Part shown: piece after piece, positions 1-8,297 of the stretch | How positions within the stretch are numbered: the stretch's first letter is position 1 | Layout of the letters: every line of letters begins with the position of its first letter | Source: a virus | Taxonomy: Duplodnaviria > Heunggongvirae > Uroviricota > Caudoviricetes | Reading direction: 5' to 3' (one strand) | Virus record (IMG/VR): IMGVR_UViG_2711768010_000006 | Length of the DNA: 13,511 bases | Notes under the pieces: model-generated | The model's input: the letters and a program-made list of their open reading frames with translations, nothing else | What the model was told of the DNA's origin: nothing | Database searches by the model: none | Position numbers and translations under genes: made by a program

Positions 1-2397
1 CAGAAAGCGGGGATTTCCGTCGGGCAGTATAAAGCCGCCATGCGTATGCTGCCTGCACAGTTCACCGACGTGGCCACGCAGCTTGCAGGGGGGCAGAATC
101 CCTGGCTGATCCTGCTGCAACAGGGTGGTCAGGTTAAGGACTCCTTCGGCGGGATGATCCCCATGTTCAGGGGGCTTGCCGGCGCGATCACCCTGCCGAT
201 GGTGGGGGCCACCTCGCTGGCGGTGGCGACCGGTGCGCTGGCGTATGCCTGGTATCAGGGCAACTCAACCCTGTCCGATTTCAACAAAACGCTGGTCCTT
301 TCCGGCAATCAGGCGGGACTGACGGCAGATCGTATGCTGGTCCTGTCCAGAGCCGGGCAGGCGGCAGGGCTGACGTTTAACCAGACCAGCGAGTCACTCA
401 GCGCACTGGTTAAGGCGGGGGTAAGCGGTGAGGCTCAGATTGCGTCCATCAGCCAGAGTGTGGCGCGTTTCTCCTATGCATCCGGCGTGGAGGTGGACAA
501 GGTCGCTGAAGCCTTCGGGAAGCTGACCACAGACCCGACGTCGGGGCTGACGGCGATGGCACGCCAGTTCCATAACGTGACGGCGGAGCAGATTGCGTAT
601 GTTGCTCAGTTGCAGCGTTCCGGCGATGAAGCCGGGGCATTGCAGGCGGCGAACGAGGCCGCAACGAAAGGGTTTGATGACCAGACCCGCCGCCTGAAAG
701 AGAACATGGGCACGCTGGAGACCTGGGCAGACAGGACAGCGCGGGCATTCAAATCCATGTGGGATGCGGTGCTGGATATTGGTCGTCCTGATACCGCGCA
801 GGAGATGCTGATTAAGGCAGAGGCTGCGTTTAAGAAAGCAGACGACATCTGGAATCTGCGCAAGGATGATTATTTCGTTAACGATGAAGCACGGGCGCGT
901 TACTGGGATGATCGTGAAAAAAAACGCCTGGAGCGGGATGCAGCCCAAAAGAGGGTAGATCAACAGCGTCAACAGGACAAAAATGCGCAGCAGCAGAGCG
1001 ATACCGAAGCGTCACGGCTGAAATATACCGAAGAGGCGCAGAAGGCTTACGAACGGCTGCAGACGCCGCTGGAGAAATATACCGCCCGTCAGGAAGAACT
1101 GAACAAGGCACTGAAAGACGGGAAAATCCTGCAGGCGGATTACAACACGCTGATGGCGGCGGCGAAAAAGGATTATGAAGCGACGCTGAAAAAGCCGAAA
1201 CAGTCCGGCGTGAAGGTGTATGCGGGCGATCGTCAGGAAGACAGTGCTCATGCGGCCCTGCTGACGCTTCAGGCAGAACTCCGGACGCTGGAGAAGCATG
1301 CCGGAGCGAATGAGAAAATCAGCCAGCAGCGCCGGGATTTGTGGAAGGCAGAAAGTCAGTTCGCGGTACTGGAGGAGGCGGCACAACGTCGCCAGCTGTC
1401 CGCACAGGAGAAATCCCTGCTGGCGCATAAAGACGAGACGCTGGAGTACAAACGCCAGCTGGCTGCACTTGGTGACAAGGTTACGTATCAGGAGCACCTG
1501 AATGCGCTGGCGCAGCAGGCGGATAAATTCGCACAGCAGCAACGGGCAAAACGGGCAGCCATTGATGCGAAAAACCGGGGGCTGACTGACCGGCAGGCAG
1601 CGCGGGAAGCCACGGAACAGCGCCTGAAGGAACAGTATGGCGATAATCCTCTGGCGCTGAATAACGTCATGTCAGAGCAGAAAAAGACCTGGGCGGCTGA
1701 AGACCAGCTTCGCGGGAGCTGGATGGCAGGCCTGAAGTCCGGCTGGAGTGAGTGGGAAGAGAGCGCCACGGACAGTATGTCACAGGTTAAAAGTGCAGCC
1801 ACGCAGACCTTTGATGGTATTGCACAGAATATGGCGGCGATGCTGACCGGCAGTGAACAGAACTGGCGCAGCTTCACCCGCTCCGTGCTGTCCATGATGA
1901 CAGAAATTCTGCTTAAGCAGGCAATGGTGGGGATTGTCGGGAGTATCGGCAGCGCCATTGGCGGGGCTGTTGGTGGCGGCGCATCCGCGTCAGGTGGTAC
2001 AGCCATTCAGGCCGCTGCGGTGAAATTCCATTTTGCAACCGGGGGATTTACGGGAACCGGCGGCAAATATGAGCCAGCGGGGATTGTTCACCGTGGTGAA
2101 TTTGTCTTCACGAAGGAGGCAACCAGCCGGATTGGCGTGGGGAATCTCTACCGGCTGATGCGCGGCTATGCGGAAGGTGGTTATGTGGGCGGTGCCGGAA
2201 GTCCGGCGCAGATGCGGCGGGCTGAAGGCATTAATTTTAATCAGAACAATCACGTGGTGATTCAGAACGACGGTACGAATGGTCTGCCAGGTCCACAGAT
2301 GATGAAGGCCGTGTATGACATGGCCCGCAAGGGTGCCCGTGATGAAATTCAGACACAGATGCGTGATGGTGGCCTGTTCTCCGGAGGTGGACGATGA
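1..2397 (+). CDS. H: Tail tape measure protein (lambda gpH-like), 5'-truncated by the window edge
   Basis: The frame is open from base 1 with no stop, so the ATG at 40 is internal and the gene starts upstream of the window. The translation has the coiled, Q/A/K/E-rich middle and Gly-rich C-terminus (GIVGSIGSAIGGAVGGGASASGG) typical of tape measure proteins. Its stop overlaps the M start in an ATGA junction, as in lambda. Confidence 0.9.
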   Translation, partial: QKAGISVGQYKAAMRMLPAQFTDVATQLAGGQNPWLILLQQGGQVKDSFGGMIPMFRGLAGAITLPMVGATSLAVATGALAYAWYQGNSTLSDFNKTLVLSGNQAGLTADRMLVLSRAGQAAGLTFNQTSESLSALVKAGVSGEAQIASISQSVARFSYASGVEVDKVAEAFGKLTTDPTSGLTAMARQFHNVTAEQIAYVAQLQRSGDEAGALQAANEAATKGFDDQTRRLKENMGTLETWADRTARAFKSMWDAVLDIGRPDTAQEMLIKAEAAFKKADDIWNLRKDDYFVNDEARARYWDDREKKRLERDAAQKRVDQQRQQDKNAQQQSDTEASRLKYTEEAQKAYERLQTPLEKYTARQEELNKALKDGKILQADYNTLMAAAKKDYEATLKKPKQSGVKVYAGDRQEDSAHAALLTLQAELRTLEKHAGANEKISQQRRDLWKAESQFAVLEEAAQRRQLSAQEKSLLAHKDETLEYKRQLAALGDKVTYQEHLNALAQQADKFAQQQRAKRAAIDAKNRGLTDRQAAREATEQRLKEQYGDNPLALNNVMSEQKKTWAAEDQLRGSWMAGLKSGWSEWEESATDSMSQVKSAATQTFDGIAQNMAAMLTGSEQNWRSFTRSVLSMMTEILLKQAMVGIVGSIGSAIGGAVGGGASASGGTAIQAAAVKFHFATGGFTGTGGKYEPAGIVHRGEFVFTKEATSRIGVGNLYRLMRGYAEGGYVGGAGSPAQMRRAEGINFNQNNHVVIQNDGTNGLPGPQMMKAVYDMARKGARDEIQTQMRDGGLFSGGGR

Positions 2398-2723
2398 AAA
2401 CCTTCCGCTGGAAAGTGAAACCCGGTATGGATGTGGCTTCGGCCCCTTCTGTAAGAAAGGTGCGCTTTGGTGATGGCTATTCCCAGCGAGCGCCTGCCGG
2501 GCTGAATGCCAACCTGAAAACGTACAGCGTGACGCTTTCTGTCCCCCGTGAGGAGGCCATGGTACTGGAGTCGTTTCTGGAAGAGCACGGGGGCTGGAAA
2601 GCCTTTCTGTGGACGCCGCCTTATGAGTGGCGGCAGATAAAGGTGACCTGCGCAAAATGGTCGTCGCGGGTCAGTATGCTGCGTGTTGAGTTCAGCGCAG
2701 AGTTTGAACAGGTGGTGAACTGA
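2394..2723 (+). CDS. M: Minor tail protein M (lambda gpM-like)
   Basis: 109-aa ORF beginning MKTFRWKVKPGMDVASAPSVRKVRFGDGYSQRAP, the same length as lambda gpM and in the same position. It overlaps the H stop by 4 bp and shares 1 bp with the L start (TGATG). Confidence 0.9.
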   Translation: MKTFRWKVKPGMDVASAPSVRKVRFGDGYSQRAPAGLNANLKTYSVTLSVPREEAMVLESFLEEHGGWKAFLWTPPYEWRQIKVTCAKWSSRVSMLRVEFSAEFEQVVN

Positions 2724-3421
2724 TGCAGGATATCCGGCAGGAAACACTGAATGAATGCACCCGTGCGGAGCAGTCGGCCAGCGTGGTGCTCTGGGAAATC
2801 GATCTGACAGAGGTCGGTGGAGAACGTTATTTTTTCTGTAATGAGCAGAACGAAAAAGGTGAGCCGGTCACCTGGCAGGGGCGACAGTATCAGCCGTATC
2901 CCATTCAGGGGAGTGGTTTTGAACTGAATGGCAAAGGCACCAGTACGCGCCCCACGCTGATGGTTTCTAACCTGTACGGTATGGTCACCGGGATGGCGGA
3001 AGATATGCAGAGTCTGGTCGGCGGAACGGTGGTCCGGCGTAAGGTTTACGCCCGTTTTCTGGATGCGGTGAACTTCGTCAACGGAAACAGTGACGCCGAT
3101 CCGGAGCAGGAGGTGATCAGCCGCTGGCGCATTGAGCAGTGCAGCGAACTGAGCGCGGTGAGTGCCTCCTTTGTACTGTCCACGCCGACGGAAACGGATG
3201 GCGCTGTTTTTCCGGGGCGCATCATGCTGGCCAACACCTGCACCTGGACCTATCGCGGCGATGAGTGCGGTTATCACGGTCCGGCGGTCGCGGATGAATA
3301 TGACCAGCCAACGTCCGACATCACGAAGGATAAATGCAGCAAATGCCTGAGTGGCTGTAAGTTTCGCAATAACGTCGGCAACTTTGGCGGCTTCCTTTCC
3401 ATTAACAAACTTTCGCAGTAA
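2723..3421 (+). CDS. L: Minor tail tip protein L (lambda gpL-like)
   Basis: 232-aa ORF, the same length as lambda gpL, with a Cys-rich C-terminus (CTWTYRGDECGYHG...CSKCLSGCKF). Syntenic between M and K. Confidence 0.9.
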   Translation: MQDIRQETLNECTRAEQSASVVLWEIDLTEVGGERYFFCNEQNEKGEPVTWQGRQYQPYPIQGSGFELNGKGTSTRPTLMVSNLYGMVTGMAEDMQSLVGGTVVRRKVYARFLDAVNFVNGNSDADPEQEVISRWRIEQCSELSAVSASFVLSTPTETDGAVFPGRIMLANTCTWTYRGDECGYHGPAVADEYDQPTSDITKDKCSKCLSGCKFRNNVGNFGGFLSINKLSQ

Positions 3422-3426
3422 ATCCC

Positions 3427-4170
3427 ATGACAGAGACAGAATCAGCGATTCTGGCGCACGCCCGGCGATGTGCTCCAGCGGAGTCGTGCGGCTTCGTGGT
3501 AAGAACGCCGGAGGGGGAAAGATATTTCCCCTGCGTGAATATCTCCGGTGAGCCGGAGGCGTATTTCCGTATGTCGCCGGAAGACTGGCTGCAGGCAGAG
3601 ATGCAGGGTGAGATTGTGGCACTGGTCCACAGCCACCCCGGTGGTCTGCCCTGGCTGAGTGAGGCCGACCGGCGGCTGCAGGTGCAGAGTGATTTGCCGT
3701 GGTGGCTGGTCTGCCGGGGGGCGATTCACAAGTTCCGCTGTGTGCCACATCTTACCGGGCGGCGCTTTGAGCACGGGGTGACGGACTGTTACACGCTGTT
3801 CCGGGATGCTTACCATCTGGCGGGGATTGAGATGCCGGATTTTCATCGTGAGGATGACTGGTGGCGTCACGGTCAGAATCTCTATCTGGATAATCTGGAG
3901 GCCACAGGGCTGTATCAGGTGCCGTTGTCAGCGGCGCAGCCGGGCGATGTGCTGCTGTGCTGTTTTGGTTCATCGGTGCCGAATCATGCCGCCATTTACT
4001 GTGGTGACGGCGAGCTGCTGCACCATATTCCTGAACAACTGAGCAAACGAGAGAGGTATACCGACAAATGGCAGCGACGCACACACTCCCTCTGGCGTCA
4101 CCGGGCATGGCACGCATCTGCCTTTACGGGGATTTGCAACGATTTGGCCGCCGCATCGACCTTCGTGTGA
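3427..4170 (+). CDS. K: Tail tip assembly protein K (lambda gpK-like; MPN/JAMM plus NlpC/P60 domains)
   Basis: 247-aa ORF starting 6 bp after the L stop. It carries an exact JAMM-type motif H-x-H-x7-S-x2-D (HSHPGGLPWLSEAD) and a downstream Cys/His set (GVTDCYTLF...NHAAIY) consistent with an NlpC/P60 fold. An internal ATG at 3571 with a GGAGG upstream would give the 199-aa form; the longer form keeps the whole MPN domain. The 3' end overlaps I by 103 bp. Confidence 0.88.
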   Translation: MTETESAILAHARRCAPAESCGFVVRTPEGERYFPCVNISGEPEAYFRMSPEDWLQAEMQGEIVALVHSHPGGLPWLSEADRRLQVQSDLPWWLVCRGAIHKFRCVPHLTGRRFEHGVTDCYTLFRDAYHLAGIEMPDFHREDDWWRHGQNLYLDNLEATGLYQVPLSAAQPGDVLLCCFGSSVPNHAAIYCGDGELLHHIPEQLSKRERYTDKWQRRTHSLWRHRAWHASAFTGICNDLAAASTFV

Positions 4171-4739
4171 AAACGGGTGCCGAAGCCATCCGGGCGATGG
4201 CCACACAGCTCCCTGCGTTTCGTCAGAAGCTGAGCGACGGCTGGTATCAGGTGCGTATTGCCGGGCAGGATGTTAGCACGTCCGGATTAACGGCACAGTT
4301 ACATGAGGCTCTGCCTGACGGCGCTGTGATTCATATTGTTCCCAGAGTCGCCGGGGCCAAGTCAGGTGGTGTATTCCAGATTGTCCTGGGAGCAGCCGCC
4401 ATTGCCGGATCATTCTTTACCGCCGGAGCCACCCTTGCAGCATGGGGGGCTGCCATTGGTGCCGGTGGTATGACCGGCATTCTGTTTTCTCTCGGTGCCA
4501 GTATGGTGCTCGGCGGTGTGGCTCAGATGCTGGCACCGAAAGCCAGAACTCCCCGCACACAGACAACGGATAACGGTAAGCAGAACACCTATTTCTCCTC
4601 ACTGGATAACATGGTTGCCCAGGGCAATGTTATGCCTGTTCTGTATGGTGAAATGCGCGTGGGGTCACGTGTGGTATCTCAGGAGATCAGCACGGCAGAC
4701 GAAGGGGACGGTGGTCAGGTTGTGGTGATTGGTCGCTGA
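4068..4739 (+). CDS. I: Tail tip assembly protein I (lambda gpI-like)
   Basis: 223-aa ORF, the same length as lambda gpI, overlapping the 3' end of K. It has an N-terminal soluble domain followed by a long Gly/Ala-rich hydrophobic segment (GGVFQIVLGAAAIAGSFFTAGATLAAWGAAIGAGGMTGILFSLGASMVLGG). Confidence 0.88.
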   Translation: MAATHTLPLASPGMARICLYGDLQRFGRRIDLRVKTGAEAIRAMATQLPAFRQKLSDGWYQVRIAGQDVSTSGLTAQLHEALPDGAVIHIVPRVAGAKSGGVFQIVLGAAAIAGSFFTAGATLAAWGAAIGAGGMTGILFSLGASMVLGGVAQMLAPKARTPRTQTTDNGKQNTYFSSLDNMVAQGNVMPVLYGEMRVGSRVVSQEISTADEGDGGQVVVIGR

Positions 4740-4799
4740 TGCAAAATGTTTTATGTGAAATCGCCTCCGGGCGGTTTTATCGTTTATGGAGCATGACGA

Positions 4800-7700
4800 A
4801 TGGGTAAAGGCAGCAGTAAGGGGCATACCCCGCGCGAAGCGAAGGACAACCTGAAGTCCACGCAGCTGCTGAGTGTGATCGATGCCATCAGCGAAGGGCC
4901 GGTTGAAGGTCCGGTGGATGGATTAAAAAGCGTGCTGCTGAACAGTACGCCGGTGCTGGACAGTGAGGGGAATACCAACATCTCCGGCGTCACGGTGGTG
5001 TTCCGGGCAGGTGAGCAGGAGCAGTCACCGCCGGAGGGATTTGAATCCTCCGGCTCCGAGACGGTGCTGGGTACGGAAGTGAAATATGACACGCCGATCA
5101 CCCGGACCATCACGTCGGCAAACATTGACCGACTGCGTTTTACCTTCGGTGTACAGGCACTGGTGGAAACCACCTCAAAGGGAGACAGGAATCCGTCTGA
5201 AGTTCGCCTGCTGGTTCAGATACAGCGTAACGGTGGCTGGGTGACGGAAAAAGACATCACCATTAAGGGCAAAACCACCTCGCAGTATCTGGCCTCGGTG
5301 GTGGTGGATAACCTGCCGCCGCGCCCGTTTAATATCCGGATGCGCAGGATGACGCCAGACAGCACCACAGACCAGCTGCAGAACAAAACGCTCTGGTCGT
5401 CATACACCGAAATCATCGATGTGAAACAGTGCTACCCGAACACGGCACTGGTCGGCGTACAGGTGGATTCGGAGCAGTTCGGCAGCCAGCAGGTGAGCCG
5501 TAATTATCATCTTCGCGGGCGCATTCTGCAGGTGCCGTCGAACTATAATCCGCAGACGCGGCAATACAGCGGTATCTGGGACGGAACGTTAAAACCGGCA
5601 TACAGCAACAACATGGCCTGGTGTCTGTGGGATATGCTGACCCATCCGCGCTATGGCATGGGGAAACGTCTTGGTGCGGCAGATGTGGATAAATGGGCGC
5701 TGTATGTCATCGGCCAGTACTGTGACCAGTCGGTGCCGGACGGCTTTGGCAGCACGGAGCCGCGCATCACCTGTAATGCCTGGCTGACCACACAGCGCAA
5801 GGCGTGGGATGTGCTCAGTGATTTCTGCTCGGCGATGCGCTGTATGCCGGTATGGAACGGGCAGACGCTGACGTTCGTGCAGGACCGACAGTCGGATAAG
5901 GTGTGGGCCTATAACCGCAGTAATGTGGTGATGCCGGATGATGGCGCGCCGTTCCGCTACAGTTTCAGCGCCCTGAAAGACCGCCATAATGCCGTTGAGG
6001 TGAACTGGATTGACCCGGATAACGGCTGGGAGACGGCGACAGAGCTTGTGGAGGATACGCAGGCCATTGTCCGTTACGGTCGTAACGTCACGAAGATGGA
6101 TGCCTTTGGCTGTACCAGCCGGGGGCAGGCACACCGCGCCGGGCTGTGGCTGATTAAAACGGAACTGCTGGAGACGCAGACCGTGGATTTCAGCGTGGGT
6201 GCTGAAGGGCTTCGTCATGTACCGGGCGATGTCATTGAAATCTGCGATGATGACTATGCCGGTATCCGCACCGGCGGGCGCGTGCTGGCGGTGAACAGCC
6301 AGACCCGGACGCTGACGCTCGACCGTGAAATCACGCTGCCATCCTCCGGCACCACGCTGATAAGCCTGGTTGACGGGCAGGGGAATCCGGTCAGCGTGGA
6401 GGTCCAGTCCGTCACCGACGGCGTGAAGGTAAAAGTGAGCCGTGTTCCTGACGGTGTTGCTGAATACAGCGTGTGGGGGCTGAAGCTGCCGACGCTGCAC
6501 CAGCGATTGTTCCGCTGCGTGAGTATCCGTGAGAACGACGACGGCACGTATGCCATCACCGCCGTGCAGCATGTGCCGGAAAAAGAAGCCATCGTGGATA
6601 ACGGGGCGCACTTTGACGGCGACCAGAGCGGCACGGTAAATGGTGTCACGCCGCCAGCGGTGCAGCACCTGACCGCAGAAGTCACCGCAGACAGCGGGGA
6701 ATACCAGGTGCTGGCCCGCTGGGACACGCCGAAGGTGGTGAAGGGCGTGAGCTTCCTGCTTCGCCTGACCGTGGCAGCGGATGACGGCCGTGAGCGGCTG
6801 GTCAGCACGGCCCGGACGACGGAAACCACTTACCGCTTCACACAACTGGCGCTGGGGAACTACAGGCTGACAGTCCGGGCAGTAAATGCGTGGGGGCAGC
6901 AGGGCGATCCGGCGTCGGTATCGTTCCGGATTGCCGCACCGGCAGCGCTGTCGCGGATTGAGCTGACGCCGGGCTATTTTCAGATAACCGCCACGCCGCA
7001 TCTTGCGGTTTATGATCCGACGGTACAGTTTGAGTTCTGGTTCTCGGAAAAGCGGATTGCGGATATCAGGCAGGTTGAAACCACAGCACGCTATCTTGGC
7101 ACGGCGCTGTACTGGATAGCCGCCAGTATCAATATCAAACCGGGCCATGATTATTACTTTTATATCCGCAGTGTGAACACCGTTGGCAAATCGGCATTCG
7201 TGGAGGCTGTTGGTCAGCCGAGTGATGATGCATCCGGTTATCTGGATTTTTTCAAAGGCGAGATAGGGAAAACCCATCTGGCTCAGGAGCTGTGGACGCA
7301 GATTGATAACGGTCAGCTTGCGCCTGACCTGGCTGAAATCAGGACGTCCATTACGGATGTCAGCAATGAAATCACGCAGACCGTCAATAAGAAACTGGAA
7401 GACCAGAGTGCGGCAATTCAGCAGATACAGAAGGTTCAGGTTGATACAAATAATAACCTGAACAGCATGTGGGCTGTGAAGCTGCAGCAGATGCAGGACG
7501 GACGCCTTTATATCGCGGGTATTGGTGCCGGTATTGAGAACACCCCTGACGGCATGCAGAGTCAGGTGCTGCTGGCGGCGGACAGGATTGCGATGGTTAA
7601 TCCTGCGAATGGCAACACAAAACCGATGTTTGTTGGTCAGGGCGATCAGATATTCATGAACGACGTGTTCCTGAAACGCCTGACGGCCCCCACCATTACC

Positions 7701-8297
7701 AGCGGTGGAAATCCATCGGCATTTTCCCTGACTCCGGACGGAAAGCTGACCGCTAAAAATGCGGATATCAGTGGCAGTGTGAATGCGAACGCCGGGACGC
7801 TCAACAATGTCACGGTAAATGAAAACTGTACGATTAAGGGCATGCTGGAGGCGACTCAGGTCAGAGGTGACTTCGTTAAAGCTGTATCCAAATCATTTCC
7901 GAAACAGGCTGGTACGTGGGGTAACACGGAAACACCAAACGGGACGGTTACAGTCACCATAAGCGATGATCATAACTTTGACCGCCAGATTATTATTCCG
8001 CCCATTATTTTTAACGGTATAGCGTATGACGATCCGGGGAGCGGAAATAACCCAGGAGGCACGCGATACACGGGTTATGGTTTTGAAGTTCGCAAAAACG
8101 GCGTATTAATCGCATCCAGAGAAACTAAAGGTGCCATTCCCGGTAGTTACAGTGCAGTTATTGATATGCCTAGTGGTGGTGGTAGCGTCACTCTGGAGTT
8201 TAAGATTTTCCAGAAAGGCAATCAGGGGGCAGGCAATATCACCGACTGTACGGTGATTGTGACCAAAAAAGCGGCTTCCGGCATCAGTATTCGTTGA
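4800..8297 (+). CDS. J: Host specificity / central tail fibre protein J (lambda gpJ-like)
   Basis: 1165-aa ORF with a GGAG 8 nt upstream of the ATG. The N-terminal ~800 aa match my recollection of lambda gpJ closely ([34 protein letters not shown]...). A central block and the last ~150 aa look different from lambda, and the protein is 33 aa longer than lambda's 1132. Confidence 0.92.

What the first reader, a model, noticed from the sequence alone, without database searches (positions are those of the whole stretch)
3427..4170. K retains an intact JAMM metalloprotease motif, and start-site choice decides whether the MPN domain is complete
The motif HSHPGGLPWLSEAD fits H-x-H-x7-S-x2-D exactly, and a candidate upstream Glu lies in PAESCGFVV, which is only present if translation starts at 3427. 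Starting at the internal ATG at 3571 would remove the N-terminal half of the MPN domain. The C-terminal half has Cys/His residues consistent with an NlpC/P60 peptidase. Paired with the ubiquitin-like gpI next door, this matches the MPN plus NlpC/P60 architecture described for lambda gpK in comparative analyses.
Basis: partly seen in the sequence, partly recalled or inferred. Interest (0 to 1): 0.35.

Follow-up and report, generated by a model that had tools for sequence, protein, structure and literature searches.

The report
Lambda-type tail protein K, full-length
This is the ordinary tail-tip assembly gene K of a lambda-like phage, a 247-residue protein with two protease domains whose first domain is complete only from the upstream start; the shorter 199-residue textbook version traces to one missing base in the 1982 lambda reference sequence.

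Summary
ORF 3427-4170 (+) encodes a 247-aa lambda gpK orthologue (about 97% identical). Pfam finds Prok-JAB at residues 4-98 and NlpC/P60 at residues 111-224. The JAMM residues are E19, H68, H70, S78 and D81. The cysteine-peptidase triad is C121, H187 and H199.

Starting at ATG 3571 removes E19 and the first helix and two strands, and the JAB score falls below Pfam's threshold. Comparative evidence favours ATG 3427:
- The first 48 codons are under purifying selection.
- E19 is nearly invariant across more than 100 distant clusters, whereas Met49 is usually Ile.
- K homologues in distant phages start right after L.

The 199-aa form has a mundane origin. The lambda reference (J02459/NC_001416) lacks one G, equivalent to window position 3561, and this breaks the long ORF. 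Other sequenced lambda derivatives and every complete E. coli genome searched carry the G.

The architecture was published in 2006. [quoted passage not shown] This is already known biology plus an annotation correction, so interest is low. Still open are whether a minor 199-aa isoform exists (the internal start has a strong Shine-Dalgarno sequence) and what the NlpC/P60 domain cuts.

The parts
2723..3421 (+). Gene L (tail tip/hub protein). Its TAA stop at 3419-3421 lies 5 nt before the K start.
   Evidence: Pfam Phage_tail_L 5e-101. Stop and spacer read directly from the sequence.
3427..4170 (+). Gene K, 247 codons plus TGA: tail tip assembly protein with JAB/MPN+ and NlpC/P60 domains.
   Evidence: PHROG 30 'minor tail protein' 6e-164. 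96-97% DNA identity to the 434 and lambda-group K region. AF2 pLDDT 97.3, pTM 0.91.
3427..3429 (+). Start codon ATG of the full-length form. It has no Shine-Dalgarno sequence (anti-SD duplex +0.7 kcal/mol) and probably depends on coupling to termination of L.
   Evidence: for SD energies. K homologues start 0-8 nt from the L stop in five of the six distant phages fetched (Mannheimia, HK75, Sazh, Snook, Vibrio H8; mEp021 is annotated about 20 nt downstream).
3436..3720 (+). JAB/MPN+ (JAMM) metalloprotease domain, residues 4-98.
   Evidence: Pfam PF14464 at 52.6 bits. PDB sequence hit 2kks, 2e-5. Foldseek to P. furiosus JAMM1 5ld9/5lda (TM 0.66-0.68, rmsd 2.6), Rpn11, CSN5 and AMSH.
3481..3483 (+). 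E19, the JAMM Glu (role of general base taken from the family). It is lost in the 199-aa form.
   Evidence: Conserved in 101 of 107 sequences (this protein plus 106 distant representatives) and in 54 of 54 close relatives. Aligned to the Glu of 2kks.
3555..3573 (+). Internal SD-like GGAGG (3555-3559), the G at 3561 that the lambda reference lacks, and the internal ATG 3571 (Met49), which is the historical 199-aa start.
   Evidence: SD duplex -9.5 kcal/mol. Met49 occurs in only 15 of 107 distant sequences and 26 of 54 close ones; Ile is common. One-base difference from J02459.
3628..3669 (+). JAMM core H68-S-H70-x7-S78-x2-D81 (zinc ligands by family analogy).
   Evidence: H68 103/107, H70 102/107, S78 97/107 (plus 7 Thr), D81 103/107.
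3757..4098 (+). NlpC/P60 (C40, papain-like) peptidase domain, residues 111-224. Triad C121 (3787-3789), H187 (3985-3987), H199 (4021-4023).
   Evidence: Pfam PF00877 at 49.2 bits. C121 101/107, H187 103/107, H199 103/107. Foldseek to MepS/Spr (8xup, 2k1g), Acd33800 (9ubf) and 7v6s.
4068..4739 (+). Gene I (223 aa), overlapping K by 103 nt in the -1 frame. N-terminal ubiquitin-like domain at about residues 14-97 (4107-4358), ending VPRVAG96A..G100G101. Hydrophobic helices and the C-terminal plug domain follow.
   Evidence: Pfam Lambda_tail_I 3e-27 over residues 14-97. G96 and G101 nearly invariant. Low-confidence AF2 model (pLDDT 44) whose listed Foldseek hits are essentially all beta-grasp Ubls (MoaD, SAMP1, SUMO, ubiquitin).

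Best explanation
Window 3427-4170 is the full-length gene K of a lambda-like (mEp460/434/lambda-group) phage or prophage. It is translated from ATG 3427, probably by coupling to termination of gene L 5 nt upstream. The product is a 247-residue, non-virion assembly enzyme with two intact peptidase domains. The N-terminal JAMM/MPN+ zinc metalloprotease (E19, H68, H70, S78, D81) acts as a deubiquitinase-like enzyme. It cuts the ubiquitin-like N-terminal domain off the neighbouring tail-tip protein gpI, near the conserved Gly96-Gly101 stretch, once gpI is built into the J-I-L tip complex. This licenses the next assembly step and leaves only the C-terminal plug part of gpI in the virion. The C-terminal NlpC/P60 cysteine peptidase (C121, H187, H199) is equally conserved and presumably also catalytic, but its substrate is not known. 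The 199-aa 'K' of the lambda reference is an annotation legacy of a one-base gap in J02459, not a separate biological form. Shown here: domain identity, motif integrity, conservation, coding constraint on codons 2-48, synteny, and the reference-sequence discrepancy. Taken from the literature: gpK cleaves gpI, and gpK is absent from virions. Inferred: translational coupling, the exact cleavage site, and catalytic competence of the NlpC/P60 domain.
For: Domains and motif:
- Pfam JAB and NlpC/P60 both score above their gathering cut-offs.
- The AF2 model has pLDDT 97.3. Foldseek matches the N half to JAMM1, Rpn11, CSN5 and AMSH, and the C half to MepS/Spr.
- Catalytic residues are nearly invariant in 106 representatives of different 50%-identity clusters and in 54 close relatives.

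Start site:
- dN/dS for codons 2-48 is 0.085, 0.22 and 0.25, against 0.090, 0.21 and 0.15 for codons 49-213 (Citrobacter, Salmonella and Stx-phage 2851 comparisons).
- tblastn covers at least 80% of the 247 aa in 1722 of 1760 phage records. In the sampled rows the match begins at residues 1-8 even at 27% identity.
- Distant full-length representatives align from query residues 2-15.
- K starts 0-8 nt after L in five of the six distant phages fetched: Mannheimia, HK75, T1-like Sazh, Klebsiella Snook and Vibrio H8.
- Met49 is Ile in 65 of 107 sequences, and in relatives as close as 94% identity.

Reference artefact:
- J02459/NC_001416 reads GGAGGC-TATTTCC where the window reads GGAGGCGTATTTCC. 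So do Lambda_AGU, DE3, KT232076, PV340536 and lambda imm21. 434 reads GGAGGAGTATTTCC, the same length.
- No complete E. coli genome (5,426 genomes, 7,745 places) matches the reference version at 100%.
- The exact 247-aa lambda gpK is indexed in 21,118 blocks, against 403 for the 199-aa call. All 10 contigs inspected with the 199-aa call still carry the extra base.

Function:
- Iyer et al. 2006 predicted that the JAB releases the Ubl of TAPI (PMC1779556).
- A Davidson lab talk reports that gpK cleaves the Ubl of gpI and that this orders assembly (PMC12908700).
- gpK was absent from virions by mass spectrometry (PMC10721106).
- In cryo-EM structures of lambda, gpI is resolved only from residue 101 (isolated tails) or about 134-135 (virions) (PMC11101478; PMC10721106; PMC12617516).
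- In F-pyocin, the N terminus of the gpI homologue is removed on maturation, and deleting the gpK homologue gives tip-less tubes (bioRxiv 10.64898/2026.02.24.707460).
Against: - ATG 3427 has no Shine-Dalgarno sequence (+0.7 kcal/mol), whereas the internal ATG 3571 has a strong one (GGAGG, -9.5 kcal/mol, 11-nt spacing). On signals alone the internal start looks better, and some gene callers choose it (199-aa clusters P0059-P0061 and P0070).
- No N-terminal sequencing, ribosome profiling or mass spectrometry of gpK was available to me.
- The gpK-cleaves-gpI result is known to me only from a meeting report, not from a paper with data.
- OR974322 carries Sam7 and shares the reference one-base gap. 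I cannot exclude that the sequenced cI857 Sam7 stock really has the deletion.
- The gpI Ubl model is of low confidence.
Confidence: 0.88

Rival explanations
1. Two products from one gene. Besides the 247-aa enzyme, the internal SD plus ATG 3571 drives synthesis of a 199-aa NlpC/P60-only isoform with a role of its own, in the manner of lambda C/Nu3 nested genes.
For: The internal SD is strong (-9.5 kcal/mol) and lies 11 nt before ATG 3571. The pair is kept in lambda, 434 and a Citrobacter relative. Iyer et al. 2006 note phages whose TAPK has only the NlpC/P60 domain.
Against: Met49 is Ile, Leu or Val in 28 of 54 close relatives, including ones at 94% and 91% identity, and is Met in only 15 of 107 distant sequences. 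The Salmonella relative has ATT and no SD, and the Edwardsiella relative has ATG but no SD. GGAGG here is constrained as the codons for P-E-A. About 11% of positions in K reach -7 kcal/mol or better. The 199-aa product would carry a half JAB domain (H68-D81 without E19 and the first helix and two strands), which is unlikely to fold cleanly.
Confidence: 0.1
2. Only the 199-aa protein is needed. The JAB half is a decaying relic in the lambda group, as the reference lambda sequence, with its broken long ORF, would imply if that sequence is correct for a viable stock.
For: J02459/NC_001416 has the ORF split. OR974322, which carries the Sam7 mutation and so derives from real lambda Sam7 DNA, shows the same state.
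Against: Codons 2-48 show the same purifying selection as the rest of the gene. E19 is kept in 54 of 54 close relatives. The other lambda derivatives sequenced have the intact ORF, and no complete E. coli genome matches the reference stretch exactly. OR974322 lacks cI857 and ind1, has clustered substitutions and an A-run at its end, so it looks reference-guided or low quality. OR474059 is identical to the reference over positions 1-24513 and is flagged UNVERIFIED. The 76-aa frameshift ORF is absent from about 15 billion predicted proteins.
Confidence: 0.03
3. The JAB domain is mainly a counter-defence deubiquitinase. It would strip ubiquitin-like tags that Bil-type bacterial systems attach to the central tail fibre gpJ, rather than act as an assembly protease.
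For: Hör et al. (bioRxiv 10.1101/2023.09.04.556158) show that Bil conjugates a Ubl to the central tail fibre. They speculate that DUB domains in siphophage tail assembly proteins are anti-Bil measures. K is encoded next to I and J.
Against: K is always paired with its own Ubl-bearing partner I, in phages of many hosts. K is an essential tail gene according to the structural literature. The gpI N terminus is missing from mature particles. The Davidson talk assigns gpI as the substrate. The two roles are not mutually exclusive.
Confidence: 0.07

Closest known systems
Bacteriophage lambda gpK (tail tip assembly protein K; TAPK of Iyer, Burroughs and Aravind 2006)
   Same: About 97% protein identity. 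Same H-M-L-K-I-J-lom gene order, same 103-nt K/I overlap, and same JAB plus NlpC/P60 architecture.
   Different: The RefSeq and UniProt lambda entry is 199 aa because the reference sequence lacks one G. The window, like re-sequenced lambda derivatives, has the intact 247-codon ORF.
Archaeal JAMM1 / HvJAMM1 desampylases and eukaryotic Rpn11, CSN5 and AMSH (MPN+ isopeptidases)
   Same: Same E...HxH...S..D motif. Best structural matches are 5ld9/5lda, the latter being JAMM1 bound to the Ubl SAMP2. NCBIfam 'desampylase' gives a weak hit at 6.8e-7. These enzymes also act on a beta-grasp Ubl that ends in Gly.
   Different: The hit is far below the NCBIfam equivalog cut-off (29 bits against 130). According to the literature the substrate is a linear Ubl-fusion within a phage structural protein, not an isopeptide conjugate. 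The domain is fused to a second peptidase.
NlpC/P60 (C40) peptidases such as E. coli MepS/Spr
   Same: Cys-His-His triad with the same 12-residue His-His spacing (the Spr spacing is recalled from memory, not checked here). Papain-like fold with TM 0.55-0.68 to 8xup, 2k1g, 9ubf and 7v6s. Pfam scores above its cut-off.
   Different: K is not found in virions and the literature treats it as an assembly factor, so a peptidoglycan substrate looks unlikely. Scores to the named cell-wall hydrolase models are far below their cut-offs.
F-type pyocin PA0639/PA0640 (PyoF8 and the tip plug protein)
   Same: gpK and gpI homologues in the same gene order. The gpK homologue is absent from mature particles and is needed for tip formation. 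The N terminus of the plug protein is removed during maturation.
   Different: This is a tailocin rather than a phage, and the protease responsible has not yet been assigned experimentally in that preprint.

Membership tests
JAMM/MPN+ metalloproteases (Pfam Prok-JAB PF14464) | Profile match above the curated cut-off | tested here: met
   52.6 bits against a cut-off of 25, residues 4-98, profile positions 4-103 of 114. The 199-aa form gives 22.9 bits, below the cut-off.
JAMM/MPN+ metalloproteases (Pfam Prok-JAB PF14464) | Complete E-x(n)-H-S/T-H-x7-S-x2-D motif | tested here: met
   E19, H68, S69, H70, S78 and D81 are present. Each is conserved in 97-103 of 107 distant sequences.
JAMM/MPN+ metalloproteases (Pfam Prok-JAB PF14464) | MPN fold | tested here: met
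   AF2 pLDDT 97.3. Foldseek probability 1.00 to JAMM1 (5ld9/5lda), Rpn11, CSN5 and AMSH. This rests on a predicted structure, not a solved one.
JAMM/MPN+ metalloproteases (Pfam Prok-JAB PF14464) | Zinc binding and (iso)peptidase activity on a Ubl C-terminal Gly | not testable with these tools
   Known only from a meeting report that gpK cleaves the Ubl of gpI (PMC12908700).
NlpC/P60 (C40) cysteine peptidases (Pfam PF00877) | Profile match above the curated cut-off | tested here: met
   49.2 bits against a cut-off of 23, residues 111-224, full profile 1-105.
NlpC/P60 (C40) cysteine peptidases (Pfam PF00877) | Catalytic Cys-His-(His/polar) triad in a papain-like fold | tested here: met
   C121, H187 and H199 are conserved in 101-103 of 107 sequences. 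Foldseek matches MepS/Spr, Acd33800 and 7v6s.
NlpC/P60 (C40) cysteine peptidases (Pfam PF00877) | Cell-wall (gamma-D-Glu-mDAP type) endopeptidase activity | not testable with these tools
Matches to the named wall hydrolase models are far below cut-off, and gpK is absent from virions.
Lambda gpK / TAPK tail-tip assembly protein | Orthology and L-K-I-J synteny | tested here: met
   96-97% DNA identity to the 434 and lambda-group K region. Flanking genes match Pfam Phage_tail_L and Lambda_tail_I. The same gene order is seen in the relatives from E. coli, Citrobacter, Edwardsiella, Salmonella and Klebsiella, and in HK75 and T1-like Sazh, with extra small genes inserted in some. Vibrio H8 lacks I directly downstream.
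Lambda gpI / TAPI ubiquitin-like partner | N-terminal beta-grasp Ubl ending in a conserved Gly, followed by a linker and a structural domain | tested here: inconclusive
   Pfam Lambda_tail_I 3e-27 over residues 14-97. G96 and G101 are nearly invariant. The AF2 model is poor (pLDDT 44), yet the listed Foldseek hits are essentially all Ubls (MoaD 1fm0_D, E = 3e-3, TM 0.62; SAMP1; SUMO; ubiquitin). A sequence profile search against the PDB finds no ThiS or MoaD.

The most novel reading that the evidence does not exclude
The NlpC/P60 half of K is conserved as strictly as the JAMM half but has no assigned substrate. It may carry out a second, still unattributed proteolytic step in tail maturation. 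One candidate is the gpH to gpH* cleavage, whose protease is stated to be unknown (PMC12617516). Another is a second cut in gpI. In addition, or instead, the JAB half may double as an anti-Bil deubiquitinase that protects gpJ.
Probability: 0.15. Interest if true: 0.55.

Novelty: already known. Interest (0 to 1): 0.2.

Why it matters
The biology is established, with the architecture published in 2006 and a function reported in 2025, so the finding adds nothing new about how tails assemble.

Its practical value concerns annotation. The most-used lambda records (J02459, NC_001416, UniProt TIPK_LAMBD) still show a 199-aa gpK that lacks the catalytic Glu and half of the MPN domain. That annotation has been copied onto genomes whose ORF is intact, such as DE3 and lambda imm21. 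It has also misled analyses: a 2020 review saw only a peptidase domain in a '199-residue' gpK and described gpI as 190 residues.

Anyone who clones, models or mutates gpK from the reference record would be working with a truncated enzyme.

Tried and rejected
- **Programmed frameshift across the lambda-reference gap, or from K into I.** I found no X-XXY-YYZ slippery site by eye at either place. K-I fusion proteins in the databases are mostly singleton clusters and are probably assembly errors. I did not pursue this further.
- **Alternative gpI start at ATG 4107.** Met14 is not conserved within the lambda clade, whereas ATG 4068 is. Rejected.
- **Antisense and nested ORFs** (2621-3748 on the - strand, 3442-3870 -, 3752-4117 -, 3806-4042 +). 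No Pfam match.
- **RNA families and promoters.** No Rfam family and no sigma-70-like promoter in 3000-5000. The terminator-like hits are at the level seen in shuffles.
- **Literature record of the missing base.** Searches on coordinates and on 'sequencing error' found nothing. The lambda ribosome-profiling paper (Liu et al. 2013) is not held.
- **OR974322 and OR474059 as independent confirmation of the reference state.** Both look reference-derived or low quality.
- **K-I complex.** Only single chains can be predicted here.

Full report
**What is there**

The window is the tail-tip part of a lambda-like phage late operon. The genes are H (40-2397), M (2394-2723), L (2723-3421), K (3427-4170), I (4068-4739) and J (4800-8297), followed by lom-like and side-fibre genes. 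The whole window is 95-96% identical to phages ev099, mEp332 and the PhiR series. The K region is 96-97% identical to the 434 and lambda-group K region. The K protein is 99.2% identical to that of mEp460. K reads as 247 codons from ATG 3427.

**Check of the observation**

- HSHPGGLPWLSEAD is at residues 68-81, and the upstream Glu is E19 in PAESCGF.
- Pfam gives Prok-JAB at 5e-14 (52.6 bits, cut-off 25) over residues 4-98. It gives NLPC_P60 at 5.8e-13 (49.2 bits, cut-off 23) over residues 111-224.
- The same ORF translated from ATG 3571 keeps the NlpC/P60 match. Its JAB score falls to 22.9 bits, below the cut-off, and covers only the last third of the profile.
- The core motif alone appears in 0.25% of shuffles of this His-rich protein. 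The profile matches and conservation carry the weight, not the regular expression.
- A PDB sequence search finds the JAB-family protein 2kks, with the Glu and the HxH aligned.
- An AlphaFold2 model built on 85 diverse homologues is very confident (pLDDT 97.3, pTM 0.91).
- In Foldseek the N half of the model matches Pyrococcus JAMM1 (5ld9; 5lda, bound to the ubiquitin-like SAMP2), Rpn11, CSN5 and AMSH. The C half matches MepS/Spr and other NlpC/P60 enzymes.
- No solved structure of gpK itself turned up in the PDB sequence or fold searches.

**Conservation**

I aligned 106 full-length representatives, each from a different 50%-identity cluster, with the window protein. Counts are out of 107.

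| Residue | Conserved in |
|---|---|
| E19 | 101 |
| H68 | 103 |
| H70 | 102 |
| S78 | 97 (plus 7 Thr) |
| D81 | 103 |
| C121 | 101 |
| H187 | 103 |
| H199 | 103 |
| H200 | 99 |

Both active sites are therefore under strong constraint across the family.

**Which start**

On signals alone the internal start looks better. ATG 3571 is preceded by GGAGG at an 11-nt spacing (-9.5 kcal/mol against the anti-SD), whereas ATG 3427 has no SD (+0.7). All comparative evidence points the other way.

1. ATG 3427 is the first start in the frame and the only one upstream of E19.
2. Codons 2-48 show the same purifying selection as codons 49-213. dN/dS is 0.085 against 0.090 (Citrobacter relative), 0.22 against 0.21 (Salmonella) and 0.25 against 0.15 (Stx phage 2851).
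3. tblastn of the 247-aa protein covers at least 80% of it in 1722 of 1760 phage records. In the sampled rows the match begins at residues 1-8 even at 27% identity. The distant representatives likewise align from residues 2-15.
4. In five of the six distant phages fetched (Mannheimia, HK75, T1-like Sazh, Klebsiella Snook, Vibrio H8) the K homologue starts 0-8 nt from the L stop, as here (TAA 3419-3421, ATG 3427). This fits translational coupling. mEp021 is annotated about 20 nt downstream. Where a moron separates K from the upstream genes (phage 2851), K has its own AGGAG.
5. Met49 is not conserved. It is Ile in 65 of 107 distant sequences. Among 54 close relatives, 28 have Ile, Leu or Val, including proteins 94% and 91% identical. 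A Salmonella relative has ATT and no SD there.

I conclude that the 247-aa protein is the functional product. A minor internal isoform in the lambda subgroup cannot be excluded, but nothing selects for it.

**Where the 199-aa form comes from**

- The lambda RefSeq record annotates K as 14276..14875, 199 aa. Phage 434 and a recent lambda record (PV340536) annotate 247 aa.
- Alignment shows that the reference lacks one base. Lambda reads GGAGGC-TATTTCCGTATG where the window reads GGAGGCGTATTTCCGTATG (the G at window position 3561).
- In J02459 the long frame therefore ends after 76 codons, and only the 199-codon frame is open.
- The G is present in Lambda_AGU (LC730321), DE3, KT232076, PV340536 and lambda imm21. 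Lambda imm434, h434 imm21, HK629 and HK630 match the 121-nt reference stretch over 122 nt, one base longer.
- Among 5,426 complete E. coli genomes, with 7,745 matching places, none matches the reference stretch at 100%. The best matches are 99.2% over 122 nt.
- The 76-aa frameshift ORF is absent from about 15 billion predicted proteins. The exact lambda 247-aa protein is indexed in 21,118 blocks, against 403 for the 199-aa call. All 10 contigs I inspected with the 199-aa call still carry the extra base.
- Only two other records share the reference state. OR474059 is flagged UNVERIFIED and has no differences from the reference over positions 1-24513. OR974322 has Sam7 but lacks cI857 and ind1, and has odd clustered substitutions and an A-run at its end. 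Neither is convincing independent evidence.
- The most likely explanation is a base missed in the 1982 sequence, perhaps through a GC compression (my inference). A private mutation of the sequenced stock is not strictly excluded.
- The short annotation has been copied onto DE3 and lambda imm21, although their long ORF is open. UniProt's TIPK_LAMBD is the 199-aa form.

**Mechanism**

- Iyer, Burroughs and Aravind (2006) described TAPK as JAB plus NlpC/P60, next to the ubiquitin-like TAPI. They predicted that the JAB releases the Ubl at its C-terminal Gly (PMC1779556).
[quoted passage not shown] The cleavage occurs only after gpI has joined the tip complex, which enforces stepwise assembly (PMC12908700).
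- gpK was not detected in virions by mass spectrometry (PMC10721106).
- Cryo-EM of lambda resolves gpI only from residue 101 (isolated tails, PMC11101478) or about 134-135 (virions).
- In F-type pyocin the N terminus of the gpI homologue PA0640 is present in stalled precursors and absent from mature particles. Deleting the gpK homologue PA0639 gives tip-less tubes.
- In the window, Pfam's Lambda_tail_I domain covers gpI residues 14-97. It ends in VPRVAG96AKSG100G101, with G96 and G101 nearly invariant.
- My AF2 model of gpI is poor (pLDDT 44). Even so, its listed Foldseek matches are essentially all beta-grasp ubiquitin-like proteins, led by MoaD and SAMP1. I count this as weak support only.
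- The role of the NlpC/P60 domain is not known from any source I could read.

**Rivals**

- A nested 199-aa isoform: about 0.1.
- JAB dispensable, 199-aa form sufficient: about 0.03.
- A primarily anti-Bil deubiquitinase role, as speculated by Hör et al.: about 0.07, and not exclusive of the assembly role.

**Other checks**

Antisense and nested ORFs have no family matches. There is no Rfam family or promoter in the region, and terminator-like hits are at the level seen in shuffles.

**Verdict**

The observation and the interpretation are both correct, but the feature is already known. The only added value is the evidence favouring ATG 3427 and the origin of the 199-aa annotation. Novelty: already known. 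Interest: 0.2.

Noticed in passing
window 3561 (equivalent to between 14266 and 14267 of J02459/NC_001416; locus L002 about 1267): The lambda reference sequence lacks this G, which splits the K ORF and explains the 199-aa annotation in RefSeq and UniProt. Other lambda derivatives and every complete E. coli genome searched have the G.
   Followed up: yes
window 4068-4170 and GTG 4167: Gene callers disagree on the gpI start too: 223 aa from ATG 4068, 210 aa, or 190 aa from GTG 4167 (a GTGA overlap with the K stop). The 190-aa form, used in a 2020 review, would clip the conserved first strand of the ubiquitin-like domain, where G21 and L23 are invariant. K's C-terminal residues after about 227 are not conserved in the family and lie in the overlap.
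   Followed up: partly
database proteins P0015, P0032, P0086, P0304, P0309, P0320 and others; phrog_28576: K-I fusion proteins of 316-428 aa (NlpC/P60, with or without JAB, plus Lambda_tail_I) occur mostly as singleton clusters. They are probably -1 frameshift assembly errors across the 103-nt overlap. I saw no slippery heptamer in the overlap by eye.
   Followed up: partly
L009 (phage 2851, NC_049943) 1-1192: In this Stx phage an Arc-like repressor and Ant anti-repressor moron lies immediately upstream of K. There K has its own AGGAG Shine-Dalgarno sequence instead of relying on L.
   Followed up: no
L021 (LC730321 Lambda_AGU) against L022 (J02459): Lambda_AGU differs from the reference at 15 sites. 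One is an extra C at 20836, which I take (from memory) to be the Ur-lambda-type intact stf. It is therefore not the same stock as the 1982 sequence.
   Followed up: partly
window 40-2397 (gene H) and K residues 111-224: The protease that converts gpH to gpH* is stated to be unknown (PMC12617516). K's strictly conserved NlpC/P60 domain has no assigned substrate. A link between the two is pure speculation.
   Followed up: no
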